Origin: Candidatus Wolfebacteria bacterium | GTDB taxonomy: Bacteria; Patescibacteriota; Minisyncoccia; UBA6257; UBA9933 | Direction: 5' to 3' | Assembly (NCBI GenBank): GCA_024654025.1 | Contig: JANLIR010000002.1 | Span: 168,959-232,958, forward strand | Length of the DNA: 64,000 nt | Shown: one piece after another, positions 4,359-45,722 of the stretch | Position numbering within the stretch: the stretch's first letter is position 1 | How the letters are laid out: each line of letters opens with the position of its first letter | Translations under genes and position numbers: made by a program | Notes under the pieces: generated by a model | What the model was told of the DNA's origin: nothing | Databases searched by the model: none | What the model saw: the letters and a program-made list of their open reading frames with translations, nothing else

Positions 4359-4363
4359 AATTT

Positions 4364-4702
4364 ATGAATATCGCATACGCTGCTCTAACTCCTTTAGTCC
4401 AATGCGGTCCCGGAACAGCCAAGCTCGAGTGCACTATTTGTGATCTATTTCAATTGGCTCAAAATATTTATAATTTTGTTATTGTTTTTGCGTTTGTTTT
4501 GGCTTTAGGAGCTTTGGTTTGGGCGGGGTTTAAAATAATGACTTCTGCCGGCGATCCGGGAAAATATAAAGACGCGGTTGGAAAAATCAGGACGATTTTA
4601 ATCGGCATAGCCATTCTGCTTTTAGCCGGGTTTGTGGTTGATTTAGTTTTGAAAGTCCTTGTCGGCGGCAGCTTGGGTCCGTGGAATAAATTGCCTTGCT
4701 AA
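4364..4702 (+). CDS. TrbC/VirB2-like (T4SS-pilin-like) small membrane protein, paralog 1
   Basis: Cys-rich N-terminus (QCGPG..LECTICD). Two TM helices flank the motif WAGFKIMTSAGDPGKYK. Confidence 0.55.
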   Translation: MNIAYAALTPLVQCGPGTAKLECTICDLFQLAQNIYNFVIVFAFVLALGALVWAGFKIMTSAGDPGKYKDAVGKIRTILIGIAILLLAGFVVDLVLKVLVGGSLGPWNKLPC

Positions 4703-4732
4703 AAAACCAAAAAAAATTTATTATAAATATTA

Positions 4733-5152
4733 ATGAAATCGCTTTTGTTTAAAATTTCTATAGTATCAGCGATAATTTTCGCGGTTTTTACCACGAGTAT
4801 TTTTGTAGAAAAAGTTTTGGCAGTGTCCGGTGGAGGGGTTAATACAGCGGCGCCGGGCGGCGGAGTTGATTCTGTTGGCGGCGGTAACGGACAGCTTTTT
4901 AATTATTTCGGATCCGGTTCGACTCTTGACAGTGTCCTTTCCAAAATAATCGATTATTTTATCGGTGTTTCGGTTTCAGTGGCTGTGATAATAGTTATCT
5001 ATGGAGCGTGGAAAATGATGACCGCGACAGGCGATCCTAAAAAATTCCAAGAAGGCCAAAAAACAGTTTTGTACGCCGCTATCGGGTTGTTGGTAATTTT
5101 ACTCGCAAGAGGGATTATCGGCGCGTTGTATGGGATAATACAAACGTTATAA
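4733..5152 (+). CDS. TrbC/VirB2-like (T4SS-pilin-like) small membrane protein, paralog 2
   Basis: Signal/TM helix, Gly-rich linker, motif YGAWKMMTATGDPKKFQ between two TM helices. Confidence 0.55.
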   Translation: MKSLLFKISIVSAIIFAVFTTSIFVEKVLAVSGGGVNTAAPGGGVDSVGGGNGQLFNYFGSGSTLDSVLSKIIDYFIGVSVSVAVIIVIYGAWKMMTATGDPKKFQEGQKTVLYAAIGLLVILLARGIIGALYGIIQTL

Positions 5153-5192
5153 TAAATATAAAGAAAAAGGTCGAGAATGAGAAATCAAAAAA

Positions 5193-5558
5193 ATGAAAAA
5201 AGTTTTACAAAAAATTATTTATTCAGGAGCGATTTTATCGCTCGTATTGCCGGTATTTTCGTTTGCCGCGATATTTACTCCGCCAGGCCAGGGGCAACCT
5301 GGAAATATTCCTATAACCGGCCTCTCTAATGTGTATGACACGCTAGATACGGTAGCTAATTATTTGTTGGGATTATTAATTGCTTTGGCGGTTGTTTTCA
5401 TTGTTTGGGGAGCGTTTCAGTTTTTAACTTCCGGTGGAGATGAAGCAAAAACAAAAGCGGCAAGAAATCATATTCTCTGGGCTCTTGTAGCTGTCGCGGT
5501 TGGGTTACTTGCTAAAGGGCTAGTTGCCGCGATAAGAGGAATCGCCGGAAACTTATAA
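5193..5558 (+). CDS. TrbC/VirB2-like (T4SS-pilin-like) small membrane protein, paralog 3
   Basis: Signal/TM helix, motif WGAFQFLTSGGDEAKTK between two TM helices. Confidence 0.55.
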   Translation: MKKVLQKIIYSGAILSLVLPVFSFAAIFTPPGQGQPGNIPITGLSNVYDTLDTVANYLLGLLIALAVVFIVWGAFQFLTSGGDEAKTKAARNHILWALVAVAVGLLAKGLVAAIRGIAGNL

Positions 5559-7831: not shown

Positions 7832-8800
7832 TTATCCCCTTCTTCTTCCGTGAAATGTTTTGTGTATTTCTTTGAGTTCTTTATTTGTTAAATGCGTGTA
7901 AATTTGGGTTGTGGAAATATTGCTATGGCCTAAAAGTTCTTGCACAGACCTTAAATCCGCTCCTCCGATTAATAAATCAGTGGCAAAGCTATGCCGGAGC
8001 AAATGCGGGTGGATTTTTTGCGGTATCCCCGCTTTTCGGCCGTAAAAATCTATCAAGCGCTGAATTGCGCGAGGAATAATTCTCCCGATAACTTTCGGAT
8101 TTGCTTGCCCTGAGCTCATCGAGTCTGAGACTCTCAGAGTCGAATGACTTGTCGAACGGGTTGCTTTAGTTAAGCTTACAAACAGCGCTTCTTCGGCATC
8201 GGTTCGTTTTCCTAAATAATTTTTTATAGCTTTCTTGGCGGATTCGGATAAAAACACCACTCTTATTTTCCCGCCCTTGCCCCGCACGGAAATTTCTCCC
8301 CTATTCAAATCAAAATACCGGCTCAAAGAACATAATTCTGAAACGCGAAGCCCGGTTGAAAACAAAACTTCCAAAATCGCTTTGTCGCGAAGTCCTTTTA
8401 AATCGTTTGTTTTGGGCGCTGCCATAAGCCGTTCCAAATCCGAGTATTCCATTATATTGATTTGCCGGTTTGGAATTCTAGGAAGCTCGATTTTTTCCGA
8501 AGCTAAAACCCTGTAGTCGTTTTTCGCCAAAAATTTCAAAAAGTTTCTAAGCGCTATTATGTAGTAGCTTTGGGTTGTGCGTTTAAAGTTTTCTCCATCT
8601 CTGGGATTATGAAGCCGCGCCAGATAGATCCGAAAATCTCTTACGTTGTCAGCGGTGATATCGCCCTCGGATTTTATTTTGGCGAAATCAAAAAACTTCG
8701 TTAAATAGTGCTCATAATTTTCCCGCGTGTCTTTAGTCCTGCCTTTTTCAATCTCAAGATAATCAAGATAGTTTTTGAGGAGTTTGTTTATGTCAGCCAT
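7832..8800 (-). CDS. tyrosine recombinase (XerC/XerD-like integrase)
   Basis: Catalytic-domain motifs LFSTGLRVSEL, HPHLLRHSFATDLL, LLGHSNISTTQIYTH. Start placed at MADINK (8800). Carries a roughly 25-aa internal insertion. Confidence 0.85.
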   Translation of the reverse strand: MADINKLLKNYLDYLEIEKGRTKDTRENYEHYLTKFFDFAKIKSEGDITADNVRDFRIYLARLHNPRDGENFKRTTQSYYIIALRNFLKFLAKNDYRVLASEKIELPRIPNRQINIMEYSDLERLMAAPKTNDLKGLRDKAILEVLFSTGLRVSELCSLSRYFDLNRGEISVRGKGGKIRVVFLSESAKKAIKNYLGKRTDAEEALFVSLTKATRSTSHSTLRVSDSMSSGQANPKVIGRIIPRAIQRLIDFYGRKAGIPQKIHPHLLRHSFATDLLIGGADLRSVQELLGHSNISTTQIYTHLTNKELKEIHKTFHGRRRG

Positions 8801-8806
8801 AGCTTC

Positions 8807-8841
8807 GCAACCTGTAACTTGTAACAATTAACTTATAACAA
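8807..8841. repeat. 5 x 7-nt degenerate heptad array
   Basis: GCAACCT GTAACTT GTAACAA TTAACTT ATAACAA. Confidence 0.65.
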
Positions 8842-9798: not shown

Positions 9799-11910
9799 AT
9801 GCTTGAATCCAAAGAATTTTCAATTGATTTTCAAGGGAAACCCTTGAGCTTAAAAGTTTCCAAAATTGCCGAGCAAGCCAACTCGGCTGTTTTAGGCCAG
9901 TACGGCGATACCGTGGTTCTAGTAACCGCCACGATGGGCGAAAAAGACCGCGATACGGATTATTTTCCTTTGGTAGTTGATTACGAAGAAAAATTTTATG
10001 CCGCCGGAAAAATTATCGGCAGCCGGTTTATTCGGCGCGAAGGCCGGCCTTCGGAAGAAGCTATTCTTTCCGGAAGAATGATTGACCGGGCGCTTCGGCC
10101 CTTTTTTAATTCACGGATGAGAAGAGATGTTCAAATTGTAATCACTATCCTTTCTTACGACGAAGAAAACGATCCGGATTTTATTTCGCTTCTCTCCGCT
10201 TCAACCGCCTTGGCAATTTCCGATATTCCGTGGAATGGCCCTGTTGCCGGAGTAAGATTGGCAAAAATGAAAGGCGGAAATTTAATGATTAATCCGACCA
10301 AGACGGAAATTAGCGGCAGTGAATTTTTATTCGAATCTTTTGTCGCCGGAAATGAAAGTAAAATAAATATGATAGAACTGGCGGCAAACGAAGTTTCCGA
10401 AAAAGAAGTTATTAGTTCATTTGAAACAGCCCAGGAAGAAATAAAAAAATTGATAAAATTCCAAAAAGAAATTATTCCCAAAATCAGCAAACCAAAAGCC
10501 GAAGTGCTTCTTGTTGAGCCGGATCCGAATTTAAAGCATAAAGTTCAGGAATTTTTAAAAAATAAATTAGAAAACGCAGTTTATGTTTCCGATAAAGCCC
10601 AGCAGCGCCATATTTTGCGAAAGTTAAAAGAAGATTTGAAAGAGCATTTGGTTTCTGAGGGGCTAATTCCGGAAGGAATTGATGCTATTGTAGAGGAAGA
10701 AATCGACGCGCTTATCCATAAAAATATTTTGGAAAAAGATATGAGGCCGGACTCTCGAAAACTCGATGAGGTCAGAGCGCTTTTCGGCCAAGTCGGTTTA
10801 TTTAAACGGCTTCACGGTTCCGCCTTGTTTTTTAGGGGTAGTACTCAATCGTTGGCAGTTACAACTTTAGCCGCTCCCGGACAGGAGCAAATGATAGAAA
10901 CAATGGAAGTTTCAGGGAAACGCAGATTTATGCTCCATTACAATTTTCCGCCTTATTCGGTTGGAGAAATAGGCAGACTGGGCGGACCGGGACGCCGAGA
11001 AGTCGGCCACGGCGCTTTGGCGGAAAAAGCCATAAGGTCAATAATCCCCTCAAAAGAGGAATTCCCTTATACTATCCGTGTTGTTTCAGAGATTTTGTCT
11101 TCAAACGGGTCATCTTCTATGGCAACTGTCTGCTCGTCGGTATTATCGCTAATGGATGCAGGTGTTCCTATTAAAAAGCCGGTGGCAGGCATTGCTATGG
11201 GAATTATTATGGGACAAGCGACAAGCGACAAGCGACAAGATTACAAAGTGCTGACCGATATTCAAGGCCCGGAAGATCACTACGGCGATATGGATTGTAA
11301 AGTTGCAGGCACAACCGACGGAATTACCGCCATACAAATGGACGTGAAAATTGACGGCGTTACCACCGAAATTTTAAATGACGTGTTAGTTCAAGCCAAA
11401 AAAGCCCGCCTTGAGATTTTGGAAGTTATGAAATCCGTTATTGATAAGCCTAGGGAAAAACTTTCAGAGTTCGCGCCAATTATTTTGACAATCAACATTA
11501 GTCCGGAAAGAATCGGCGAAGTTATCGGCCCGGGCGGAAAAATGATTAATATGATAATTAAAGACACCGGCGTTACGACAATAGATATCGAACAAACCGG
11601 AAAAGTTTTTGTTTCCGCCACTACTCCCGAACAAGCCCAAGCGGCGATTGGGTTCATCCAATCCTTAACAAAAGAATTCGAGGTCGGCGAAATTATTGAA
11701 GGCAAGATTATCAAACTTTTGGAATTTGGAGCCATTGTCGATTTGGGAGGCGGCAATGACGGAATGATTCACATTTCAGAAGTAAAAAGCGGATTTGTAA
11801 AAGATATTAATGAAGTTCTTAAATTGGGCGATGTTGTGAGGGCAAAAATTATAAAAGTTGAAAACGGAAAAATCGGACTTTCGATAAAAGCCTTGGCGGA
11901 ACAAAAATAG
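9799..11910 (+). CDS. pnp: polynucleotide phosphorylase
   Basis: Two RNase PH domains (GSALFFRGSTQ, SSNGSSSMATVC, DHYGDMDCKVAGT), then KH (GPGGKMINMI) and S1 (GAIVDLGGGNDGMIHISE). Confidence 0.97.
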   Translation: MLESKEFSIDFQGKPLSLKVSKIAEQANSAVLGQYGDTVVLVTATMGEKDRDTDYFPLVVDYEEKFYAAGKIIGSRFIRREGRPSEEAILSGRMIDRALRPFFNSRMRRDVQIVITILSYDEENDPDFISLLSASTALAISDIPWNGPVAGVRLAKMKGGNLMINPTKTEISGSEFLFESFVAGNESKINMIELAANEVSEKEVISSFETAQEEIKKLIKFQKEIIPKISKPKAEVLLVEPDPNLKHKVQEFLKNKLENAVYVSDKAQQRHILRKLKEDLKEHLVSEGLIPEGIDAIVEEEIDALIHKNILEKDMRPDSRKLDEVRALFGQVGLFKRLHGSALFFRGSTQSLAVTTLAAPGQEQMIETMEVSGKRRFMLHYNFPPYSVGEIGRLGGPGRREVGHGALAEKAIRSIIPSKEEFPYTIRVVSEILSSNGSSSMATVCSSVLSLMDAGVPIKKPVAGIAMGIIMGQATSDKRQDYKVLTDIQGPEDHYGDMDCKVAGTTDGITAIQMDVKIDGVTTEILNDVLVQAKKARLEILEVMKSVIDKPREKLSEFAPIILTINISPERIGEVIGPGGKMINMIIKDTGVTTIDIEQTGKVFVSATTPEQAQAAIGFIQSLTKEFEVGEIIEGKIIKLLEFGAIVDLGGGNDGMIHISEVKSGFVKDINEVLKLGDVVRAKIIKVENGKIGLSIKALAEQK
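11213..11240 (+). repeat. heptanucleotide tandem repeat inside pnp
   Basis: GACAAGC x3 (perfect) plus GACAAGA. Encodes QATSDKRQD. Confidence 0.85.
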
Positions 11911-16767: not shown

Positions 16768-17199
16768 ATGCAAACAAAAAAAATTACAGCAGAATATATT
16801 AGGGGCTTTATTGAGGGCGTGGGAACTTTTACTTTCACAACCTCGTCACGGGGTTTCAATAAAAAGGTTAAAATACCAACTTTTCAATTAAGAATGAATA
16901 TTCGAGATAAACGGTTAATTGAATTGATTAAAGGACATCTCGGACTTAAAAATAGGGTTTATATGTATCATTATCCGGGAACTGATGGCGCAAAACGAGG
17001 GCCACAAGCGATGTTAATAGTCCGAGAAATAGGTAATCTGAAAAATATAATCATCCCTTTCTTTTACGATAAGCTGGTTGGGTATAAAGCAGCCCAATTT
17101 AATAAGTGGCTTGAAAGAATAGGTAAAGACTCGGAAGTGCCAGAGGGATTTAAGATTCTATACCGTCTTCATAAATCCGGTTGGTTTTCAAAGAAATAG
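16768..17199 (+). CDS. free-standing LAGLIDADG homing endonuclease (single-motif type)
   Basis: AEYIRGFIEGVGTFTF is LAGLIDADG-like. 143 aa. Confidence 0.7.
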   Translation: MQTKKITAEYIRGFIEGVGTFTFTTSSRGFNKKVKIPTFQLRMNIRDKRLIELIKGHLGLKNRVYMYHYPGTDGAKRGPQAMLIVREIGNLKNIIIPFFYDKLVGYKAAQFNKWLERIGKDSEVPEGFKILYRLHKSGWFSKK

Positions 17200-19394: not shown

Positions 19395-20333
19395 CTACTT
19401 CAAAGTCGTAATCGGCCTGCTTTGGACAATATAAAATTTATTTTTTTCAAAAGCCCATTCAATGTCCTGCGGTTTTTTATAATGATTTTCTATATTTTGG
19501 CATATTTGTGCCAACTGTAAAATATATTTGTCGGCCAGTTTTTGTTTTTCTTGCTTGGCTTTCGGCACGATAGTTTCTTTAACTCCGCTTCCGTCTCGCA
19601 CAACCATCATTTCCTGCTTTGAAATGTTTGAGTCCAAAATATTTCTGTTTGTTTTGTGAATTACGTAAGTGTCAGGAGTGATTTTGCCCCCGACAATCGC
19701 TTCGCCCAATCCATACCCGGCCTCAATTACCATCTGGTCATAATCTTCGGTTACTGGGTGTACCGTAAAACAGATTCCGGAAATTTCCGATTGAATCATT
19801 TTCTGCACCACAACTGCCACTAAAACTTTTTGCTTATGAAGTTTTTTTTCAAACCGATAAAAAATCGCGCGTGGAGTAAATAGCGATGCCCAGCATTTTT
19901 TAACATTTTCCAAAAGATTTCCCTTTGAAGTATTTAAATAACTTTCCAATTCTCCGGCCCAGGAAGCGGTAGAAGAGTCCTCGGCTGTGGCTGAACTACG
20001 TACTGCCACATATTTTGTTTTCAGCTTGGCGAATTCAGTTAAAATTTCTTTGGCGATATCTTTGGGAAATTTAGCGTTTAAAATTAAGCTCCTGATTTCT
20101 TCAGAGACCTTTTCAATGGAGTTTATATCTTTGACTTTTACTTTGTGGAGCTGGGCTTCTATCTCAACGTCAATATCGGTTTCTTCCAAAAACCTATCAA
20201 AAGCCCCAGCCAAAACCACAAATCCGGGCGGCACCGGAATTCCGGATTTTATCATTTCGCCAAGCGAAGCTCCCTTGCCTCCGGCAATAGCAGCGTCTTT
20301 TTTTGAAAGTTTGTTAATTTTTTTAATAAACAT
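19395..20333 (-). CDS. PEP synthase/PPDK N-terminal ATP-grasp (nucleotide-binding) domain protein
   Basis: AGGKGASLGEM, VAVRSSATAEDS, QDIEWAFEKNKFYIVQSRPIT. Ends where full-length enzymes continue. Confidence 0.85.
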   Translation of the reverse strand: MFIKKINKLSKKDAAIAGGKGASLGEMIKSGIPVPPGFVVLAGAFDRFLEETDIDVEIEAQLHKVKVKDINSIEKVSEEIRSLILNAKFPKDIAKEILTEFAKLKTKYVAVRSSATAEDSSTASWAGELESYLNTSKGNLLENVKKCWASLFTPRAIFYRFEKKLHKQKVLVAVVVQKMIQSEISGICFTVHPVTEDYDQMVIEAGYGLGEAIVGGKITPDTYVIHKTNRNILDSNISKQEMMVVRDGSGVKETIVPKAKQEKQKLADKYILQLAQICQNIENHYKKPQDIEWAFEKNKFYIVQSRPITTLK

Positions 20334-20366
20334 AATCTACATTTTAACAGCCCAAACCGCTTATAT

Positions 20367-21965
20367 CTACCTTCCCAAATGCAAAACTTTTCTATGATGA
20401 GGATTTGATGTTTTTTGGGCTTGAACCGGAATTATCTTAAAATTATTTTTTGATTTTTTTATCACCGTCACCTTCCCGGAATTTGCGTCAACCTCAACCA
20501 GGTCGCCGTCTTTTAATGATTTTGTAGCTGTCTTTGCTCCGATAATGCATGGTGTTTTAAGTTCTCGAGCCACAATCGCCGCATGGCACAATAAACCTCC
20601 CTCATCGGTGACAACGGCGGAAGCTTTTTTTATTAAAGGCACAAAATCCGGCGTTGTCATAGAAGTAACTAAAACGTCTCCCTCTTCAAATTTTCCTTTT
20701 TCTGACCTTGGGTCAAAAATAATTTTAGCTTTTCCTTTGACCCTTCCTTTATATGCAGTAAACCCTTTTAGTATTTGATTTTTTGAGGTTTCTATCTTCT
20801 CGTGCCAGTCTTCTTTTTTGACGCCGGTCCATACTTTAATCGCGTTTCCGACTTGTTTTATGGTGGCTCCTTTTAATATTCTTTCTCTGACTATTTTTTT
20901 TGGATTATTTTTTCCCAAAAGACCCTCAATAATTTCTTTTTTGGAAAGAAGCCAAAAATCGTCCGCTTCTTCCAATTTCAATCTGTCTATAATTTCAAGG
21001 TAAAAATCCCAGCAGTGCACGAAGTAGTTATAATAATTTTCTTCATCGCAGTTGCGGTAGCCCATCATTTTTCTGAGCCAGAAAATATGTTTTGTTATTT
21101 TGGAATGTTTTTTTAGTTCGGATAAAATTTTCCCCACTATTTTTCGGCTCTTTTCTTCTTCATTATTTATTTTTCTTATTTCGGCTTCGGCATCGGTTTT
21201 TAAGTGTTTCAAAAACCGTTTGTCAATGTCCCCAAGCTTGTAATAATTGCCGTCGTGTTTAAAACTGCATCCGCCGAATTTATACCAATGGCCGAAAATA
21301 ATTTTTTTAATCTTTTTGTCCCGCCAGTTTTTTGAAGTCCTGTATATTTTTTGTATCTTAATTAATTTTTTCAAAAAATTCAGCCGCTCGGTCTTAACCA
21401 TTGAATTTATGCCCACAGATGAAAGAGTTTGCAGAATTTTTCCAACATCTTTTATTTTCAGCTCAGAAGAAAATTTGTCCAATTCTTTTTTGACTAGGCG
21501 GGGAAGAAGATTAACCAAGTCGTAGACGACGTAATAGCCGGCCAGCGCCCGGCGGTGATAATAACCGTGCTTTTCCAATATTTTTACCAGATCGCCGTTT
21601 GTCCTGCTTTTGTAAAAACCGGCACCTTTGGTAAATATTTGATCGGTTATTTTTTTAAAATCCGCGTAAGATTTGAAAAAATATTTTTCCAGCCTGCTGA
21701 AATAATTTTTATCTTTCAGTAAATCGCCGGCGACTCCTTCCAGAAATTCGTCTTCAATTTTACTGTCCCAATAAATAAAAAATTCCCTGGGATTGCCCGA
21801 TCTGGTAGAAACGTATTTAACCCAATTGCCGTAATTTCTTTTATAAGGATCTCCTTTCCAATTTAAAATAGTTACTTTTAAAGTTTCTTCTTCAGAAAGA
21901 ATATCCAGTACTCTGACCATTTTTTCAATGTTATCCGGATTGGAAAAGGGTTTATACCTGCTCAT
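20367..21965 (-). CDS. RPH/PEP-synthase-like protein: unknown helical N-terminal region plus C-terminal phosphohistidine swivel domain
   Basis: C-terminal VLVTSMTTPDFVPLIKKASAVVTDEGGLLCHAAIVARELKTPCIIG (PEP-utilizer mobile domain). DDFWLLSKKEI resembles the DIF(Y/F)L..EEL segment of RPH-like enzymes. Confidence 0.75.
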   Translation of the reverse strand: MSRYKPFSNPDNIEKMVRVLDILSEEETLKVTILNWKGDPYKRNYGNWVKYVSTRSGNPREFFIYWDSKIEDEFLEGVAGDLLKDKNYFSRLEKYFFKSYADFKKITDQIFTKGAGFYKSRTNGDLVKILEKHGYYHRRALAGYYVVYDLVNLLPRLVKKELDKFSSELKIKDVGKILQTLSSVGINSMVKTERLNFLKKLIKIQKIYRTSKNWRDKKIKKIIFGHWYKFGGCSFKHDGNYYKLGDIDKRFLKHLKTDAEAEIRKINNEEEKSRKIVGKILSELKKHSKITKHIFWLRKMMGYRNCDEENYYNYFVHCWDFYLEIIDRLKLEEADDFWLLSKKEIIEGLLGKNNPKKIVRERILKGATIKQVGNAIKVWTGVKKEDWHEKIETSKNQILKGFTAYKGRVKGKAKIIFDPRSEKGKFEEGDVLVTSMTTPDFVPLIKKASAVVTDEGGLLCHAAIVARELKTPCIIGAKTATKSLKDGDLVEVDANSGKVTVIKKSKNNFKIIPVQAQKTSNPHHRKVLHLGR

Positions 21966-22285
21966 TTCAAAATTTTTACGATTCCTTTGTTTAAGTCCAT
22001 TTCAACCCTGTCGCCGTCTTTTAAAATTTTCGTGGCGTTTTTCGTACCCACAATACAAGGAATGCCGAATTCCCGAGCTATAATTGCAGGATGAGAGGTG
22101 ATTCCTCCTCTATCTGTGATTATGGCAGCCGCTTTTATGATAATTGCCGCGAAAGAAGGATTGGTTAATTCCGCAACTAAAATTTCCCCTTCTTTAAAAT
22201 TTTTAAAATCCTTGGGATTTTTAATGATTTTTACTCTGCCCTTGGCTTTCCCTTTGTTTGCAACGATCCCTTTTATTTCTTTCAT
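21962..22285 (-). CDS. stand-alone PEP-utilizer mobile (phosphohistidine swivel) domain protein
   Basis: ILVAELTNPSFAAIIIKAAAIITDRGGITSHPAIIAREFGIPCIVG. 107 aa. ATGA overlaps at both ends. Confidence 0.8.
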   Translation of the reverse strand: MKEIKGIVANKGKAKGRVKIIKNPKDFKNFKEGEILVAELTNPSFAAIIIKAAAIITDRGGITSHPAIIAREFGIPCIVGTKNATKILKDGDRVEMDLNKGIVKILK

Positions 22286-23346
22286 AAATTGTAAATTTTT
22301 TTCAAGTATGCCACCCCTACGTATTTCTCATACTCCTTTTTATTTTTCGGATAGGACATTTTTATAAAACCTGTTTTTAAGCGCTTATCTTTTATTTTTT
22401 TAACCATTTCTTTATCCGGACGCCAATTTAAGCCAGCCAAATTAAATAATCCCCTTAATTCATAAGCTTGCTGTTCTAAAAATTTCAATTTTGTTTTTTC
22501 AAAATTATATCCCTTTGCCTCAAGATAAATTTCTCCGGTTTTCTCCGCTATTTGCCGGATTAATTTTTCAATTTTAAGGCCAGTCGCTGGTTTTCCGTTC
22601 AACAAAACCAAATATTTAAACAATTTTTTGGCATAGTCCTTATCCGCTAAAATATGAGTAGTTACAAAACGCATTTTGAGTCTTGTGTCTTTGTATAAAA
22701 CCAAAATCATTATTTTTTTAAATTTAAAATTTTTTAATTTAGGCCACAGCTCTTTAGGAAACAAATCAAGGTAATTCTTTATAAGCAGAGAATGATTTTT
22801 ATATTTGTAAGGACCTTCGTTAAAATAACCATATTCGGTTGAATAATCGTTGTAAAGCGCGTGGTTATACATCGCTAAAATACCGCTTAATTTAGATATA
22901 TTTGCCTTTTCTTTTTCGCCGGCAACTTTCAATTTTAGGATAATTCTGCTGATTTCTTCTTTTGTTCTTAAAACACAACTTTTTTCATTAAATAGATTTT
23001 TATCTTTGCTTATCCAAAGCATGTACTTTATGAAAAAGTCAAAAATAGTTTTTGCTTTTTCTTTGTCATAATTAAAATAAGCGCCCATATTCACAAGCGT
23101 ATAAAATATATATTTTATGGAGCCATAATTAGAAAGGTTCGCTAAAATTTTCTTTTGGGATATTTTTTTGCTTTCAATTATCTTAATGGCGGAATAAATT
23201 TTATCCATCCAAAGTTTGAAATATAAAGGATAAAATTTAAAGGCATTGAATGGCAGATGAGATGCCGGGTCGTGATCGCCGAAAGTAAAATCCTTTACGG
23301 CATCAGAATAATCCCGTATCCATTTATTTGGATTCCAATTATTCAT
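22282..23346 (-). CDS. hypothetical protein (operon member)
   Basis: 354-aa Lys/Tyr-rich ORF, translationally coupled on both sides. No family recognised. Confidence 0.55.
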   Translation of the reverse strand: MNNWNPNKWIRDYSDAVKDFTFGDHDPASHLPFNAFKFYPLYFKLWMDKIYSAIKIIESKKISQKKILANLSNYGSIKYIFYTLVNMGAYFNYDKEKAKTIFDFFIKYMLWISKDKNLFNEKSCVLRTKEEISRIILKLKVAGEKEKANISKLSGILAMYNHALYNDYSTEYGYFNEGPYKYKNHSLLIKNYLDLFPKELWPKLKNFKFKKIMILVLYKDTRLKMRFVTTHILADKDYAKKLFKYLVLLNGKPATGLKIEKLIRQIAEKTGEIYLEAKGYNFEKTKLKFLEQQAYELRGLFNLAGLNWRPDKEMVKKIKDKRLKTGFIKMSYPKNKKEYEKYVGVAYLKKIYNL

Positions 23347-32141: not shown

Positions 32142-32212
32142 GGGAGCTTAGTTAAGTGGCATAATAGTTGTCTCCAAAACAACGGTCGGGGGTTCGATTC
32201 CCTCAGCTCCCG
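32142..32212 (+). tRNA. tRNA-Trp(CCA)
   Basis: GGGAGCT TA GTTA AGTGGCA TAAT A GTTGT CTCCAAA ACAAC GGTC GGGGG TTCGATT CCCTC AGCTCCC G. Confidence 0.9.
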
Positions 32213-32281
32213 CGAAATATTCGATAAAAATCTCGTATTTTGTCAATTGATAGCCCACCCTTTTTTTGCTATACTTCCGAC

Positions 32282-32406
32282 GGAGCTCTGGTAGTGATTC
32301 TCGGATCAAATTATTTGCGAGGGGAGGATAAAAGTGCTTTAACTTCATTGTTAGGGTTGAATCCGCCCACCTGGCACTAGCCGGGATAATCCAACACCAG
32401 GGCTCC
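32282..32406 (+). ncRNA. candidate structured RNA, possibly SRP (4.5S-like) RNA
   Basis: An 11-bp closing helix GGAGCTCTGGT / ACCAGGGCTCC, plus GATT/AATC and CTCGG/CCGGG helices. The 5' (GCUCUGGU..UUCUC) and 3' (GCCGGGAU...CAGGGCUCC) strands resemble E. coli 4.5S. I could not recognise the apical GGAA/AGCA motif. Confidence 0.3.
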
Positions 32407-32570
32407 TTTTGCGCTTACGCTAACACGATACTAATATACTAATTTTACTAATGATACGAATTGGATACGAATTCGTATTTATTAGTATCATTCGAATGCA
32501 TTCGTCCTTCGACTTACTCAGGACGACCCTGAGTCGGTCGAATGGGTCGTATATTGGTATCACAATCACA

Positions 32571-33815
32571 ATGAGGCGTTTCTATTTTGATTACGCTGCT
32601 ACTACTCCGATTGACCCAGAGGTTTTAAAAGAAATAAATTCTAATTTAAGGAATAATTTTGGCAATCCCGGATCGCTCAATTTTTTCGGGCAAGCCGCAA
32701 TGGCAATGGTTGATAAATCGCGCGAAAAAATCGCCAACGCAATCAACGCTGATTTTCGGGAAATAATTTTTACCGGATCCGCGACGGAGGCAAACAATCT
32801 CGCACTCAGAGGAATACTAAAAAACGCCCGCCTGCGCCAAGGCTTCGGCGGGCAGGTAAAAACTAAAAGCAAAAAACCGAGAATAATTGTTTCAGCTATT
32901 GAACACGAATCTATTTTAGAAACTGCTAGAGATTTATCCGCCAGAGGCGGATCCGCCTTTGGCGGAGAAAAAGAAGGCGTGGAAATTATTTATTTGCCGG
33001 TTGATAAAAACGGCGTTGTGGATTTAAAGAAGTTAGAGAACGCATTGAACGAAAGAACGATTTTGGTTTCAATAATGTACGCGAACAACGAAACCGGAGT
33101 CATACAACCAATAGCAGAAATCGCCGAAATTATAAAAAAATTCAAAGAAAAAAAATACCCTAAACCCTACACCCTAAACCCTACACCCTATTTTCACACC
33201 GACGCTGTCCAGGCGTTCCAATTTCTGGATTGCAATATTAAAAACTTAGGGGTAGATTTAATGACTTTATCGGCTCATAAAATTTACGGACCAAAAGGAA
33301 TTGGCGCGTTATACGTACGCAACTCACAACTCACAACCTACAACTTACAACCAATAATTACTGGAGGAAAACAAGAATTTGGATTAAGATCCGGCACTGA
33401 AAACGTTGCCATGATAGCTGGTTTCGCCAAAGCAATTGAATTGGCAAATGAGAAACGGGAAAAAGAGAAAAAAAGAATTTTTTTGCTGGCGCAATATTTT
33501 TTTAAAGAAATAAAAAAGATTGTTCCGAGCGCCCAACTAAACGCAGGGAAGGCCAAGCGGCTGCCTAATATTTTAAATATCGCTTTCTCGGGTTATGACG
33601 CGGAGAGTTTGCTGATAAAATTTGACCTTAACGGCACTGCTGTTTCCCGAGGCTCGGCGTGTATGGCGCGTTCGTCTCAGTCGTCTTATGTATTAAAAGA
33701 AATGGGACTAAGTGAAAGCGAGCAGCGCTCCAGTTTGCGGTTTAGCTTCGGCAGATTTACAACAAAAGAAGAAATGTCTAAAGCCTTGAAAATTATAAAA
33801 AAAACATTAAAATAG
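32571..33815 (+). CDS. cysteine desulfurase (IscS/NifS family)
   Basis: YFDYAATTP, FTGSATEANN, SAHKIYGPKGIGALYVR (PLP Lys), RSGTENV, SRGSACM (active Cys). Start placed at MRRFYF. Confidence 0.9.
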   Translation: MRRFYFDYAATTPIDPEVLKEINSNLRNNFGNPGSLNFFGQAAMAMVDKSREKIANAINADFREIIFTGSATEANNLALRGILKNARLRQGFGGQVKTKSKKPRIIVSAIEHESILETARDLSARGGSAFGGEKEGVEIIYLPVDKNGVVDLKKLENALNERTILVSIMYANNETGVIQPIAEIAEIIKKFKEKKYPKPYTLNPTPYFHTDAVQAFQFLDCNIKNLGVDLMTLSAHKIYGPKGIGALYVRNSQLTTYNLQPIITGGKQEFGLRSGTENVAMIAGFAKAIELANEKREKEKKRIFLLAQYFFKEIKKIVPSAQLNAGKAKRLPNILNIAFSGYDAESLLIKFDLNGTAVSRGSACMARSSQSSYVLKEMGLSESEQRSSLRFSFGRFTTKEEMSKALKIIKKTLK

Positions 33816-44099: not shown

Positions 44100-45722
44100 A
44101 TGATAAAAGAAAGAATCAAGAAAATTATCAAAGACGCTGTTGGAGAGGAAGCCGAGATTTTTGTACCGGAAAATGAAAAATTCGGACATTACTCGACTAA
44201 TGTTGCTTTGAGATTGGCAAAAGAAAAAAGCAAAAAACCGATGGCGATTGCGGAGGACATAAAAGATAAAATATTATCCTTCGATAAACTCAGGACCTTC
44301 GGTAAAATCGAAATTGCTTCGCCAGGATTTATCAATTTTTGGATTTCAGAAAAAACTTTACAAAACGAATTAAAAGAAATTTTAAAAAAGAAAAATTCTT
44401 ATGGTAAAGCGTCAAGTGTCAAGCGTAAAATGGGAAGCATTCAAGTAGAGTTTATTTCCGCCAATCCGACCGGACCTTTAACAATCGGAAACGGAAGAGG
44501 CGGGTTTTTTGGAGATGTTTTGGCGAATATTTTGAAATTTTCCGGAAATAAAATTATCAAAGAGTATTATGTTAACGACGCTAAAAACAGCACGCAAATA
44601 AGGGAATTGGGTAAAACCGGGCTTGGTCTGGGGGAAACTTATTTAACTCCCGGATTAAAAAAAATAATCAAAAAATTAAAGTCGAAGATTAGTAATGTAA
44701 TCCTTCGTTGCGCTCAGGATGCTCCGCAAAGCGTCGCAGGCGAAGTCGGCTATTTGTTGGCAGGCGAAATAAATAAACAAAACAAGAAATTTGTTGAGAA
44801 AGTTTTAAAAATCAAATTCGACAAATGGTTTTCCGAAGAATCTTTGTATAAAAGCGGAGCGGTAAAAAAACTTTTAAGCGATTTGAAGAAGAAAAATTTA
44901 GTTTATGAAAAAGAAGGCGCCTCGTGGTTTAAAGCAAAACAATTTGGCGACACCGAGGACCGCGTGCTTATAAGAAGTTCGGGCGAGCCGACTTATATTG
45001 TGCCTGACCTTGCTTATCACGCGGATAAATTTAAAAAAAGAAAATTTTCTAAAGCCATTGATGTTTGGGGAGCGGATCATCATGGCTATATTCCTCGGCT
45101 CAAAGCCGGATTAAAATCGCTTGGAATTTCCGAAGACCGGTTGAAGATTGTTATTGCTCAGATGGTTCGGCTTGTTAAAAATGGCCAGGAATACAAAATG
45201 TCCAAAAGAAAAGGAGATTACGTGACAATGGAGGATTTAATAAAAGAAGTTGGGCTCGACGCGGCAAGATTTTTCTTTTTAATGAGCGCGCCGGACACTC
45301 ATATGAATTTTGACCTTGATCTGGCAAAAGAGCGTTCAATGAAAAATCCAGTTTATTACGCGCAGTACGCGGCAGTTAGGGCGAACAGTATTCTGCAAAA
45401 AAATAAAAAACTTAAAAACTTAAAAACTAAAAGCAACCCAAATTTAAATTTATTAAGTACGAAAGAGGATGTAAATTTAATGAAAATACTGGCGAGATTT
45501 CCGGAAATTGTCGAAGAAGCGGCCCAAAATTACAACCCGCAAATTTTAGTCAGATATTCAATTGACCTGGCAAGGCAATTTCACAATTTTTACGAGAAAG
45601 AACATGTCATAGGCGAGCGGGCGGATTTGATGTCGGCGCGATTAGAACTTATAAAAGCCACCAAAATAATTTTTGAAATTTTGTTCAAGCTTTTGGGGAT
45701 TAGCTATTCAAGAAAGATGTAA
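44100..45722 (+). CDS. argS: arginine--tRNA ligase
   Basis: Class I signatures ISANPTGPLTIGNGRGG (HIGH-like) and KMSKRKG. C-terminal anticodon-binding domain. Confidence 0.93.
   Translation: MIKERIKKIIKDAVGEEAEIFVPENEKFGHYSTNVALRLAKEKSKKPMAIAEDIKDKILSFDKLRTFGKIEIASPGFINFWISEKTLQNELKEILKKKNSYGKASSVKRKMGSIQVEFISANPTGPLTIGNGRGGFFGDVLANILKFSGNKIIKEYYVNDAKNSTQIRELGKTGLGLGETYLTPGLKKIIKKLKSKISNVILRCAQDAPQSVAGEVGYLLAGEINKQNKKFVEKVLKIKFDKWFSEESLYKSGAVKKLLSDLKKKNLVYEKEGASWFKAKQFGDTEDRVLIRSSGEPTYIVPDLAYHADKFKKRKFSKAIDVWGADHHGYIPRLKAGLKSLGISEDRLKIVIAQMVRLVKNGQEYKMSKRKGDYVTMEDLIKEVGLDAARFFFLMSAPDTHMNFDLDLAKERSMKNPVYYAQYAAVRANSILQKNKKLKNLKTKSNPNLNLLSTKEDVNLMKILARFPEIVEEAAQNYNPQILVRYSIDLARQFHNFYEKEHVIGERADLMSARLELIKATKIIFEILFKLLGISYSRKM
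44404..44438 (+). repeat. 5 x 7-nt heptad array inside argS
   Basis: GTAAAGC GTCAAGT GTCAAGC GTAAAAT GGGAAGC. Encodes GKASSVKRKMGS. Confidence 0.65.

What the first reader, a model, noticed from the sequence alone, without database searches (positions are those of the whole stretch)
44277..44745. Recurrent 19-nt motif TCCTTCG-N5-CTCAGGA: twice in frame in argS and once in the cysteine-desulfurase leader
The three copies are as follows.
- 44277 TCCTTCGataaaCTCAGGAcc, encoding LSFDKLRTFG.
- 44701 TCCTTCGttgcgCTCAGGAtg, which continues into nested stems TTGCG/CGCAA and CTTCG/CGAAG and encodes ILRCAQDAPQSVAGE.
- 32505 TCCTTCGacttaCTCAGGAcg, followed by ACTCAGG acgac CCTGAGT.

Three copies with conserved ends and a variable 5-nt centre suggest a small mobile or structured element that is tolerated inside an essential aminoacyl-tRNA synthetase.
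Basis: seen in the sequence. Interest (0 to 1): 0.5.

Follow-up and report, generated by a model that had tools for sequence, protein, structure and literature searches.

The report
Small palindromic repeats inside essential genes
The recurring 19-base motif is real: it is one unit of a short palindromic "junk DNA" repeat family found in many bacterial phyla, and in this tiny groundwater bacterium copies sit in frame in surface loops of essential proteins such as arginyl-tRNA synthetase.

Summary
TCCTTCG-N5-CTCAGGA occurs exactly three times, all on the + strand, and in none of 100 shuffles. The window comes from a Candidatus Wolfebacteria (Patescibacteria) genome.

The motif is one unit of a REP-like palindromic repeat superfamily. 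The three copies belong to two subtypes. Copy 3 is a head-to-head dimer that forms a strong 47-nt hairpin 22 nt upstream of the cysteine desulfurase start. It is absent from that site in the two closest relatives. The same element sits at two other, non-orthologous sites in related genomes.

The two argS copies are single units. They lie in two hypervariable surface loops, are lineage-specific and do not fold better than shuffles. They add only 1 and 4 codons, so they are partly replacements rather than clean insertions.

Relatives carry clean 21-, 24- and 48-nt in-frame insertions of the same family in argS, in all open reading frames. I found a fourth, nested copy in the window's XerC/D-like recombinase gene.

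The same core, with non-random centres, saturated scans of genomes from about 15 phyla, metagenomes and viral contigs.

Closest known kinds: CGTC/TGTC-tagged REPs and Rickettsia palindromic elements. How the units move is unresolved. This is a new member of a known kind, of moderate interest.

The parts
32503..32549 (+). Copy 3. A head-to-head dimer of two repeat units: left unit TCCTTCGACTTACTCAGGA (32505-32523), 4-nt junction CGAC, right inverted unit CCTGAGTCGGTCGAATGG (32528-32545). Together they form a 47-nt imperfect hairpin that ends 22 nt upstream of the cysteine desulfurase start codon at 32571.
   Evidence: RNA MFE is -25.6 kcal/mol against -15.6 +/- 2.8 for shuffles, z = -3.64; the - strand gives z = -3.67. 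The annotated start of the 100%-identical NCBI protein P0121 corresponds to 32571. The hairpin is absent at this site in L129 and L130. Identical arms occur in L195 (rpoB-rpoC spacer) and in L003 (folD-lytR spacer).
32458..32546 (+). An 89-nt window-specific block. It comprises an AT-rich palindromic segment (ATACGAATTCGTAT...) followed by the GC-rich hairpin. The closest relatives have 22 unrelated nucleotides in its place.
   Evidence: Comparison of the window with L129 and L130, whose downstream protein is 94-95% identical. The same composite block occurs in L195.
44277..44297 (+). Copy 1. A single unit, TCCTTCGATAAACTCAGGACC, in argS, encoding S60-T66 (SFDKLRT). It lies at the end of helix 47-61 and in the loop before strand 67-73.
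   Evidence: Present and identical in the window, L004 and L006. It is replaced by unrelated AT-rich sequence, one codon shorter, in L001, L003, L005, L007 and L008. No significant fold, z = 0.03. AF2 gives DSSP loop 62-66 and a pLDDT block of 85 against 95-96 in the neighbouring blocks.
44700..44721 (+). Copy 2. A single unit, ATCCTTCGTTGCGCTCAGGATG, in argS, encoding I201-D207 (ILRCAQD). It lies at the C-terminal end of helix 194-206 and in the following loop.
   Evidence: It matches the widespread consensus ATCCTTCGCTGCGCTCAGGATG at 22 of 23 positions. The site is 4 codons longer than in most homologues. A variant unit, CCCTTCGACATGCTCAGGGCG, occupies the same site in L001 and L005, and a second 24-nt unit is stacked there in L006. 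L007 and L008 have no unit. z = -0.01. pLDDT block 80 against 97 and 95.
8103..8160 (-). Nested, degenerate units CCCGTTCGACAAG[TCATTCGACTCTGAGAGTCTCAGACTCGATGAG]CTCAGGGCAAGC lie in frame in the XerC/D-like tyrosine recombinase gene (7832-8827, - strand) and encode RSTS-HSTLRVSDSMS-SGQA.
   Evidence: Sequence and translation. The Pfam Phage_integrase domain is present. In alignments to PDB 4a8e (XerC-like), window residues of about 213-239 correspond to only 4 residues of the chain, which implies an insertion of about 23 aa. STSSGQ is the third reading frame of the same DNA core.
44100..45722 (+). argS (arginyl-tRNA synthetase, 540 aa), the host gene of copies 1 and 2.
   Evidence: Pfam Arg_tRNA_synt_N, tRNA-synt_1d and DALR_1. 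Homologues are named arginine--tRNA ligase of Wolfebacteria or Patescibacteria. The AF2 model has mean pLDDT 93.
32571..33815 (+). The cysteine desulfurase gene downstream of copy 3. It also carries a different GC-rich mini-palindrome insertion at 32938-32967 (SARGGSAFGG).
   Evidence: Pfam Aminotran_5. The 10-aa insertion is absent even from the 95%-identical P0122. P0128 and P0130 carry a reversed unit of the motif family (EGLALSGV) at the adjacent position.

Best explanation
The motif is one unit of a short, non-coding, REP-like palindromic DNA repeat family. A unit is about 19-23 nt. It has an outer stem TCCT/AGGA, a TC/CT mismatch pair (a tandem G.A pair on the opposite strand), one G-C pair and a 5-nt variable loop. 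Units occur singly or as head-to-head dimers that fold into hairpins of about 45-48 nt.

In this Wolfebacteria genome and its relatives the units behave as selfish or neutral dispersed DNA. They appear and disappear at particular sites between close relatives. They stack at the same hot spots. Inside essential genes they survive only where three conditions hold: the insert keeps the reading frame, it carries no stop codon, and it lands in a tolerant surface loop.

Shown here: family membership, presence/absence differences between relatives, occurrence at several non-orthologous sites, use of several reading frames, and location in loops.

Inferred: the units are copied from other copies in the genome. 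My best guess is two routes. Dimers are mobilised in trans as DNA hairpins, in a REP/MITE-like way. Single units in genes arise either by loss of one arm or by short-patch copying (template switching or gene conversion) seeded by microhomology. The second route would explain why sites 1 and 2 in argS change length by only 3 and 12 nt. I hold the two routes at roughly equal odds.

I think the argS copies have no function of their own. The copy-3 hairpin in the 5' leader could incidentally affect mRNA stability or termination.
For: - The motif is non-random in the window.
- Copy 3 is a significant hairpin.
- Copy 3 is absent at the orthologous site in L129 and L130. Elements with identical arms occur in the L195 rpoB-rpoC spacer and the L003 folD-lytR spacer, where they are flanked by a GTGTTCG direct repeat that occurs once in the empty L008 site.
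- Relatives' argS genes carry clean in-frame insertions of the family: a 48-nt dimer, and 21- and 24-nt single units (L006). Frames read FDKLRT, LRxAQD/G, STSSGQ and, reversed, LVLREVEG.
- The distribution among relatives is mosaic. P0005 shares site 1 with the window but not the site-2 type. P0002 shares site 2 but lacks site 1.
- There is a fourth, nested in-frame copy in the XerC/D-like gene.
- A reversed unit lies in the cysteine desulfurase of P0128 and P0130.
- Microhomology at targets: the empty site reads AAGCTCGGGC and the unit AAGCTCAGGGC; GGATAAAT in L008 corresponds to CGATAAAC at site 1.
- Genome, metagenome and viral scans all stopped at the 120-locus limit, with strongly non-random centres. 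In the genome scan CTGCG (34), CTTCG (26), ACAGG (25), ACAAG (17) and CTCCG (10) account for 112 of 153 matches. Flanks are conserved (GACA after AGGAT in 75 of 151). An inverted copy of the unit's own core lies within 160 nt in 42% of hits against 1% in the control.
- The outer pair covaries: unseeded copies read C..G 30 times, C..A 12 times, and anything else once.
- Both argS sites lie at a helix end or loop with lowered pLDDT. Other pLDDT dips coincide with the insertion sites seen in relatives.
- About a quarter of low-GC metagenome hits lie inside ORFs of at least 150 aa, in every stop-free frame and in both orientations.
Against: - Only four loci occur in 64 kb. I could not measure genome-wide copy number, which is a defining trait of REPs.
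- No Y1/RAYT or IS transposase was found among the 40 window ORFs scanned, nor in the gene tables of related loci.
- The putative target-site duplications are inconsistent: 7 nt in L003 and 4 nt in an A-rich context in L006.
- The isolated unit hairpin is thermodynamically weak, -2.7 kcal/mol with z = -0.1.
- Sites 1 and 2 in argS are not clean insertions.
- Sequence-level conservation of a 14-20-nt core across many phyla is more than neutral selfish DNA would easily explain. It hints at a conserved recognition partner.
Confidence: 0.75

Rival explanations
1. The motif is a selected recognition sequence. It would be a conserved binding or processing site for a widely conserved protein or RNA, or a DNA-uptake-like signal. 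It would spread by biased conversion rather than transposition, so that copies arise in place with little change in length.
For: - Sites 1 and 2 change length by only 3 and 12 nt.
- The exact 14-20-nt core is shared across many phyla and viral contigs.
- Many metagenome copies are isolated single units with unrelated flanks; only 5-13% have an inverted partner.
- The window encodes a ComEC-type competence protein, inferred by synteny with PF03772 genes.
Against: - Density is far below that of uptake sequences: about 4 loci in 64 kb against roughly 1 per kb in Neisseria or Haemophilus (established knowledge).
- Uptake sequences are lineage-specific, not shared across phyla.
- Relatives show clean insertions of 21-48 nt and dimers, which is how a repeat element behaves.
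- No candidate binding partner was identified.
Confidence: 0.1
2. The three copies are a shared cis-regulatory RNA structure or binding site that coordinates argS and cysteine desulfurase expression.
For: - Copy 3 lies in a 5' leader and folds strongly.
- All three copies are on the sense strand of their genes.
Against: - Copies 1 and 2 do not fold better than shuffles on either strand.
- Copy 3 is absent from the closest relatives, whose gene is otherwise 94-95% identical.
- Copies 1 and 2 are absent from relatives at 78-88% identity.
- The same units sit in unrelated genes and spacers elsewhere.
- No Rfam family matches.
Confidence: 0.05
3. The recurrence reflects selection on a peptide motif, or plain chance or codon bias.
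For: Two copies are in frame in one protein. The look-elsewhere probability for one such motif of any kind in the window is only about 0.05.
Against: - The two argS copies are read in different frames (FDKLRT and LRCAQD), and the third copy is non-coding.
- Relatives use a third frame and the reverse strand.
- 0 of 100 shuffles contain any match.
- The family is independently abundant elsewhere, with conserved flanks.
Confidence: 0.03
4. The copies are an assembly or binning artefact. Because the core is shared by many organisms, motif-bearing stretches could be chimeric joins in a metagenome-assembled genome.
For: The window is from a MAG, and the core is shared across phyla.
Against: - Independent assemblies from other samples reproduce the same argS sequences base for base (L004, L003, L006, L199).
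- The reading frames stay intact.
- Flanking sequence on both sides is collinear with relatives.
- The motif also occurs in genomes of cultured isolates such as Sphingomonas gilva and Hymenobacter profundi.
Confidence: 0.02

Closest known systems
CGTC/TGTC-tagged repetitive extragenic palindromes (REP super-family of Di Nocera et al. 2013, PMC3733652), which includes Neisseria dRS3 and Rickettsia RPE-4 and RPE-6
   Same: - Both are short imperfect palindromes, mostly extragenic, often arranged as head-to-head dimers that can fold into larger hairpins.
- Both are found in several phyla.
- Both are occasionally inserted in frame in genes, including tRNA synthetase genes.
- On the complementary strand the widespread form of our unit reads TGTC-AT CCTGAG..CGAAGG AT. 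That gives a [C/T]GTC tag next to a stem whose first two pairs are A-T and T-A, as described for CGTC families. The tag is seen in 99 of 151 genome hits and the A..T closing pair in 78 of 151.
- No dedicated transposase is known for CGTC REPs either.
   Different: - The published stems are 8-9 bp with 4-5-nt loops. Here the stem is 4-5 Watson-Crick pairs, a tandem mismatch and 1-2 further pairs, and it is weak on its own.
- The window's own copies lack a good tag: GGTC for copy 3 and none for copies 1 and 2.
- Our sequence strings are absent from that paper's text and held supplements.
- Patescibacteria were not among the phyla listed there.
Rickettsia palindromic elements (RPEs; Ogata et al. 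2000, as summarised in PMC10969869)
   Same: Both are palindromic repeats inserted in frame into unrelated, often essential, protein-coding genes of a small-genome bacterium. In both cases the insertion appears compatible with protein folding and function.
   Different: - RPEs are about 100-150 bp and each family encodes a conserved peptide.
- Here units are 19-48 nt and are read in every stop-free frame and in both orientations.
- Most copies of the family are extragenic.
[quoted passage not shown]
   Same: Both are small, non-autonomous and palindromic, can fold in transcripts, and sometimes form in-frame fusions. One insertion here is flanked by a 7-nt direct repeat.
   Different: - MITEs are 70-300 bp with 15-30-bp terminal inverted repeats and target-site duplications of fixed length.
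- Here the whole element is shorter than a typical MITE, and the putative duplications differ in length.
DNA uptake sequences (Neisseria DUS, Haemophilus USS) and cyanobacterial HIP1
   Same: All are short over-represented motifs that also occur inside genes, in tolerant parts of proteins and in several frames, without large insertions or deletions. This is established knowledge and was not tested here.
   Different: Those motifs are lineage-specific and far denser. Here the density is low, the core is shared across phyla, and clean insertions and dimers occur.

Membership tests
REP (repetitive extragenic palindrome), CGTC/TGTC-tagged super-family | A short (20-40 bp) imperfect palindrome able to form a stem-loop | tested here: met
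   The unit folds as 5 bp, a 2x2 internal loop, 2 bp and a triloop. The outer pair covaries T-A to C-G: 30 C..G, 12 C..A, 1 other. However, the unit alone is weak, -2.7 kcal/mol with z = -0.1. The dimer (copy 3) is strong, z = -3.6.
REP (repetitive extragenic palindrome), CGTC/TGTC-tagged super-family | An unpaired CGTC (or TGTC/CCTC) tetranucleotide at one end, with a stem that starts with A-T and T-A pairs | tested here: inconclusive
   Across the family, 99 of 151 genome hits have GAC[A/C/G] (the reverse complement of [T/G/C]GTC) next to the stem, and 78 of 151 have the A..T closing pair. In the window, copy 3 has GGTC, copies 1 and 2 have no tag, and only copy 2 has the AT start.
REP (repetitive extragenic palindrome), CGTC/TGTC-tagged super-family | High copy number per genome (usually more than 100) | not testable with these tools
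   Only 64 kb of the genome is available, with 4 loci.
REP (repetitive extragenic palindrome), CGTC/TGTC-tagged super-family | Predominantly extragenic location, often as head-to-head dimers | tested here: met
   About 75% of low-GC metagenome hits lie outside ORFs of at least 150 aa. 42% of genome hits have an inverted copy within 160 nt against 1% in the control. In the window itself 3 of 4 loci are intragenic.
REP (repetitive extragenic palindrome), CGTC/TGTC-tagged super-family | Association with a RAYT (Y1 HUH transposase) gene. This holds for GTAG REPs but not for CGTC REPs. | tested here: not met
   No Y1_Tnp or IS transposase was found among 40 window ORFs or in the Pfam tables of related loci. 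The rest of the genome was not examined. CGTC REPs also lack one.
Rickettsia palindromic elements (RPE) | In-frame insertion into functional protein-coding genes | tested here: met
   argS sites 1 and 2, the XerC/D-like gene, and relatives' argS, folD and cysteine desulfurase genes.
Rickettsia palindromic elements (RPE) | Element length of about 100-150 bp, encoding a family-specific conserved peptide | tested here: not met
   Units are 19-23 nt and dimers 44-48 nt. Several frames and both orientations are used.
MITE | Terminal inverted repeats of 15-30 bp, length of 70-300 bp, and a target-site duplication of fixed length | tested here: not met
   The length is below the range. The putative duplications are 7 nt (GTGTTCG in L003) and 4 nt (CTAA in L006). 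Other events show microhomology instead.
DNA uptake sequence (DUS/USS) | A species-specific motif at about 1 per kb, in both orientations | tested here: not met
   Three exact copies in 64 kb, all on one strand. The core is shared by many phyla.
Rfam structured RNA families | A match to a curated covariance model | tested here: not met
   There was no match over the motif sites in the window or in 17 motif-bearing loci from other phyla at the gathering threshold, and no meaningful match over 32200-32620 at E up to 10.

The most novel reading that the evidence does not exclude
The most novel reading is that the roughly 20-nt unit is not ordinary selfish DNA. It would be a pan-bacterial recognition module, with an identical core in about 15 phyla, in Patescibacteria and in viral contigs. 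It would be copied into new sites as single units of about 20 nt by a transposase-independent, microhomology-seeded patch-copying process, or it would be kept by a universally conserved partner. Its strand-specific features fit a single-stranded functional form: the G.A tandem, the G.T intermediates on the complementary strand, and the [C/T]GTC tag. Its partial resemblance to the 5' end of 16S rRNA (GATCCT-GGCTCAGGAYGAACG, recalled from memory) would then not be a coincidence.
Probability: 0.12. Interest if true: 0.75.

Novelty: new member of a known kind. Interest (0 to 1): 0.45.

Why it matters
Patescibacteria have tiny, streamlined genomes. Even so, this one tolerates repeated DNA inside essential genes: argS, a Xer-type recombinase gene and the cysteine desulfurase gene.

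This gives a second, independent case, after Rickettsia, of palindromic repeats that reshape protein loops. It also explains many of the odd GC-rich 'insertion peptides' seen in predicted proteins from metagenomes, such as FDKLRT, LRxAQD, STSSGQ and PEFIEG. That matters for annotation, for alignment-based phylogeny, and for separating real protein innovation from repeat debris.

The same 14-20-nt core recurs in many phyla and in viral contigs, and I found no paper that contains the sequence. A systematic census might therefore define one of the most widely distributed bacterial repeat families and make its way of spreading testable.

Tried and rejected
- **Rfam.** I searched the window, 17 motif-bearing loci from other phyla, and the copy-3 leader at E up to 10. 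Nothing relevant matched.
- **Full-text literature.** I searched for 18 DNA strings and peptide strings of the motif. The only hits were unrelated PCR primers. A keyword search for palindromic elements in Patescibacteria found nothing specific.
- **Motif as the conserved loop of a hairpin with variable stems.** My first visual impression was that many metagenome hits looked like this. When tested, only a minority did. Flank-to-flank duplex energy of -15 kcal/mol or better occurred in 21% of hits against 7% of re-paired controls in the metagenome set, and 16% against 13% in the genome set. Consecutive flank pairing was no better than the control. I rejected it as a general architecture.
- **Nested stems after copy 2.** They fold no better than shuffles and are not conserved in the P0003/P0004 variant.
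- **Unit hairpin stability.** It is not significant for the consensus unit on either strand.
- **A transposase in the window.** None was found among the 40 ORFs scanned; there is only a Xer-type recombinase and a LAGLIDADG endonuclease.
- **DUS-like, peptide-selection, chance and artefact readings.** Rejected for the reasons given under the rival explanations.
- **DGR or retroelement involvement.** An RVT_1 gene lies next to argS in L001 and L006. I considered this but did not pursue it. The gene is absent from the window, and nothing links it to the motif.
Full report
**Observation.** The pattern TCCTTCG-N5-CTCAGGA occurs exactly three times in the window, at 32505, 44277 and 44701, all on the + strand. 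None of 100 dinucleotide-preserving shuffles contains a match. Relaxing to three mismatches adds little: 10 matches against 3.6 expected. The one extra match that matters is the inverted partner arm of copy 3, at 32527-32545 on the - strand.

The motif was chosen after the fact, so I ran a look-elsewhere control. I counted every 7-Nk-7 motif (k 0-12, at least 8 of 14 bases G or C) with three or more dispersed copies. One such motif turns up in 6 of 120 order-3 Markov simulations, and never more than one. The window has three. On the window alone the motif is therefore only moderately significant. The evidence from other genomes, described below, removes the doubt.

**Context.** The window comes from a Patescibacteria genome. 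The cysteine desulfurase is 100% identical to an NCBI protein of a 'Candidatus Wolfebacteria bacterium' MAG on a 248,723-bp contig. The annotated start of that protein corresponds to window position 32571. Copy 3 is therefore in the 5' leader, not in the gene. argS spans 44100-45722 and encodes 540 aa with the expected Pfam domains. Its closest homologues are Wolfebacteria and Paceibacterota ArgRS.

**The argS copies.** I aligned 120 homologues and made a codon alignment of the seven closest relatives, using DNA fetched from their contigs.
- *Site 1* (SFDKLRT, residues 60-66) is identical in the window, P0001 and P0005. In P0002, P0003, P0004, P0006 and P0007 it is replaced by unrelated AT-rich sequence that is one codon shorter.
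- *Site 2* (ILRCAQD, residues 201-207) is four codons longer than in most homologues and the same length as in P0007.
- At site 2, P0003 and P0004 carry a variant unit (CCCTTCGACATGCTCAGGGCG). P0005 has a second 24-nt unit stacked on it. P0006 and P0007 have no unit.

Both sites are therefore lineage-specific, but they are mostly replacements of variable sequence, not clean insertions. The pattern among relatives is mosaic. P0005 shares site 1 with the window but not the site-2 type, while P0002 shares site 2 but lacks site 1. That points to recombination or repeated events.

Neither argS copy folds better than shuffles on either strand, with z between -0.04 and 0.15. An AlphaFold2 model has mean pLDDT 93. 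It places site 1 at the end of helix 47-61 and the loop 62-66, and site 2 at the end of helix 194-206 and the loop 207-211. Local pLDDT dips to 85 and 80. The other dips in the model coincide with the places where relatives carry insertions.

**Copy 3.** This copy is a 47-nt imperfect hairpin at 32503-32549, made of two units head to head. Its MFE is -25.6 kcal/mol against -15.6 +/- 2.8 for shuffles, z = -3.64.

In the two closest relatives, L129 and L130 from Hainich groundwater, the cysteine desulfurase is 94-95% identical. Their leader is collinear with the window up to ...ACTAATGATAC and again from TCGTATATTGG onward. In between they have 22 nt where the window has 89 nt, consisting of an AT-rich palindrome followed by the GC-rich hairpin.

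The same composite block lies in the rpoB-rpoC spacer of another Hainich contig, L195. An element with identical arms and one extra inverted arm lies in the folD-lytR spacer of L003. There it is flanked by a GTGTTCG direct repeat, whereas the empty site in L008 has a single GTGTTTC. So the same element sits at three non-orthologous sites in close relatives, and a related genome has the matching site empty. That is good indirect evidence of mobility.

**The family in relatives and a fourth copy in the window.** P0005's argS (L006) holds seven units. These include a clean 48-nt dimer (16 aa, LTHSINSGLVLREVEG) and a clean 21-nt unit (ARSTSSG). L003 has a unit in folD. L131 has a reversed unit in its cysteine desulfurase.

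FDKLRT, LRxAQD/G and STSSGQ are the three reading frames of one DNA core, TTCGAnAAGCTCAGGRC. This rules out selection on a peptide.

Guided by that core, I found a fourth locus in the window. Nested, degenerate units lie at 8103-8160 on the - strand, in frame in the XerC/D-like recombinase gene. They produce an insertion of about 23 aa relative to solved Xer recombinases.

The window's cysteine desulfurase also carries a different GC-rich mini-palindrome (SARGGSAFGG). It is missing even from the 95%-identical P0122. Small palindromic insertions therefore seem to be a general and recent feature of this lineage.

**Distribution beyond the lineage.** The scan stopped at its 120-locus limit with 153 matches. 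They came from Acidobacteriota, Chloroflexota, Bacteroidota, Alphaproteobacteria, Gemmatimonadota, Verrucomicrobiota, Planctomycetota, Firmicutes, Patescibacteria, Omnitrophota and other groups. Cultured isolates are among them.

The 'variable' centre is far from random. CTGCG (34), CTTCG (26), ACAGG (25), ACAAG (17) and CTCCG (10) account for 112 of the 153 matches. The flanks carry information too: GACA follows AGGAT in 75 of 151 hits. In 42% of hits an inverted copy of the unit's own core lies within 160 nt, against 1% for a control.

Two consensus types emerge:
- type A, aGATCCTTCGCTGCGCTCAGGATGACA;
- type B, TCCTTCGACA[A/G]GCTCAGGA[C/T]GA....

Copy 2 matches type A at 22 of 23 positions. 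Copies 1 and 3 are AT-shifted type B.

A metagenome scan with TCCTTCGAYWWACTCAGGAC also stopped at its limit. The copy-1 form (centre ATAAA) made up 69 of the 120 hits, on contigs of 31-68% GC. Viral contigs carry the motif with the same centre bias. About a quarter of low-GC metagenome hits lie in ORFs of at least 150 aa, in every stop-free frame and in both orientations. The rest are extragenic.

**What a unit looks like.** The 19-mer is itself a small hairpin: TCCT/AGGA, then a TC/CT mismatch pair, then a G-C pair and a 5-nt loop.

On the complementary strand the mismatches become a tandem G.A, and the widespread form reads TGTC-ATCCTGAG...CGAAGGAT.

Among copies that were not forced by my search patterns, the outer pair is C..G 30 times, C..A 12 times and anything else once. 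C..A is a G.T wobble on the complementary strand. This is consistent with a hairpin read on the complementary strand, although descent of a subfamily could give the same picture.

The unit alone is thermodynamically weak, -2.7 kcal/mol with z = -0.1.

**Mechanism.**

*Shown:* the units form a dispersed family. They differ in presence between close relatives, they occur at non-orthologous sites, they stack at hot spots, and in genes they sit in frame in tolerant loops.

*Inferred:* they are copied from other copies in the genome. The data do not settle how.
- One event has a 7-nt flanking direct repeat.
- Another has a possible 4-nt repeat in an A-rich context.
- Several others show microhomology between the target and the unit: AAGCTCGGGC against AAGCTCAGGGC, and GGATAAAT against CGATAAAC.
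- In several cases the net length change is much smaller than a unit.

I therefore favour a mixed picture. Dimers would be mobilised as hairpins, in a REP/MITE-like way. Single units in genes would arise by loss of one arm or by short-patch templated copying.

No Y1/RAYT or IS transposase is present among the 40 window ORFs scanned or in the related loci. Most of the genome was not visible to me.

**Comparison with known systems.** The closest described kind is the CGTC/TGTC-tagged REP super-family of Di Nocera et al. (PMC3733652). Those are short palindromes with an unpaired [C/T]GTC tag and a stem that begins with A-T pairs. They are mostly head-to-head dimers, are found in several phyla, have no dedicated transposase, and are sometimes inserted in genes, including tRNA synthetase genes. 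The super-family includes Rickettsia RPE-4 and RPE-6. Our type A fits the tag and the A-T rule. It differs in having a weaker, mismatch-containing stem. The window's own copies lack a good tag, and the sequence itself is not in that paper or its held supplements.

Functionally, the nearest analogue is the Rickettsia palindromic elements, which also insert in frame into essential genes of a reduced genome. Those are 100-150 bp and encode family-specific peptides, which is not the case here.

The features of MITEs, DNA uptake sequences and Rfam families were tested and not met.

**Verdict.** The finding is real and is explained as REP/RPE-like repeat units in a Patescibacteria genome. It is a new member of a known kind.

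What remains surprising is that the core is conserved at the sequence level across many phyla and viral contigs. I also found no paper containing it.

Limitations:
- only 64 kb of the genome was available;
- the mechanism is inferred from a handful of junctions.

Noticed in passing
window 32282-32405 (+), promoter-like site at about 32242-32270: A non-coding block of about 125 nt (GGAGCTCTGGTAGTG...CACCAGGGCTCC) lies between tRNA-Trp and the cysteine desulfurase gene, behind a TTGTCA-N17-TATACT promoter-like site. It is about 95% identical in L130, L131 and L132, although the flanking proteins are only 71-95% identical. RNAalifold gives a closed multi-branch fold with one compensatory pair. 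In L131 and L132 a strong terminator hairpin follows it. There is no Rfam hit. It is a candidate unannotated small RNA or leader.
   Followed up: partly
window 32420-32500; L195 5830-5920: An AT-rich repeat block built from TACTAAT and ATACGAAT(TCGTAT) motifs lies upstream of copy 3. The same block, with the GC hairpin embedded in it, lies in the rpoB-rpoC spacer of a related Hainich contig. This is a second, AT-rich repeat family that travels with the hairpin.
   Followed up: partly
window 32938-32967 and 32823-32858 (in the cysteine desulfurase gene): Other GC-rich mini-palindromes lie inside the gene. CCGCCAGAGGCGG-ATCCGCCTTTGGCGGA encodes SARGGSAFGG, a 10-aa insertion absent even from the 95%-identical P0122. 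CGCCCGCCTGCGCCAAGGCTTCGGCGGGCAGG (RLRQGFGGQ) lies in a hypervariable stretch.
   Followed up: partly
L004 about 2030-2090 (P0001 argS): A 60-nt GC-rich palindrome, unrelated to the motif, encodes PARRPIRQSLSVGGSFDAGG. It is inserted in frame in the argS of the closest relative and is absent from the window.
   Followed up: no
L001 8290-9522 and L006 2152-3378: A 408-410-aa reverse transcriptase gene (Pfam RVT_1 only) sits between smpB and argS in two relatives and is absent from the window. I found no link to the motif.
   Followed up: no
window 54880, 62093, 62214 and 13711, 18249, 24235: Two other GC-containing motifs recur three times each: AAAAGGTGCGGGGT and the palindromic GGTCGCC-NN-AGGCGAC. 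Both exceed what order-3 Markov simulations give.
   Followed up: no
L005 about 4300-4415 (folD-lytR spacer): A different MITE-like palindrome (CCCGTTAGAAACGG ... CCGTTTCTAACGGG, about 110 nt) is flanked by ATGAAT direct repeats at a site that is empty in the window.
   Followed up: no
window 44400-44440 and its counterparts in L001 and L007; window 11213-11235: Short in-frame tandem repeats occur in variable protein loops: CACAAGT x3 in L001 argS and AAGCTA-type repeats in L007 argS, at the loop where the AF2 pLDDT drops to 71. A GACAAGC x3 run lies in the window's PNPase gene.
   Followed up: no
window 19395-23346 (-), 16768-17199 (+), 4364-5558 (+): The pyruvate phosphate dikinase region is split into several ORFs, with the PEP-utilizers domain present twice. 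There is a free-standing LAGLIDADG endonuclease ORF, and three tandem T4SS-pilin-like genes.
   Followed up: no
family consensus (loci L009-L128): The type A and B consensus (GATCCT..GCTCAGGA[T/C]GA[A/C]) resembles the 5' end of bacterial 16S rRNA just after the 27F primer site (GATCCTGGCTCAGGA[C/T]GAACG). I am recalling the 16S sequence from memory and did not check it against data. Only about 9% of hits extend the match to GAAC, so it may be a coincidence.
   Followed up: no
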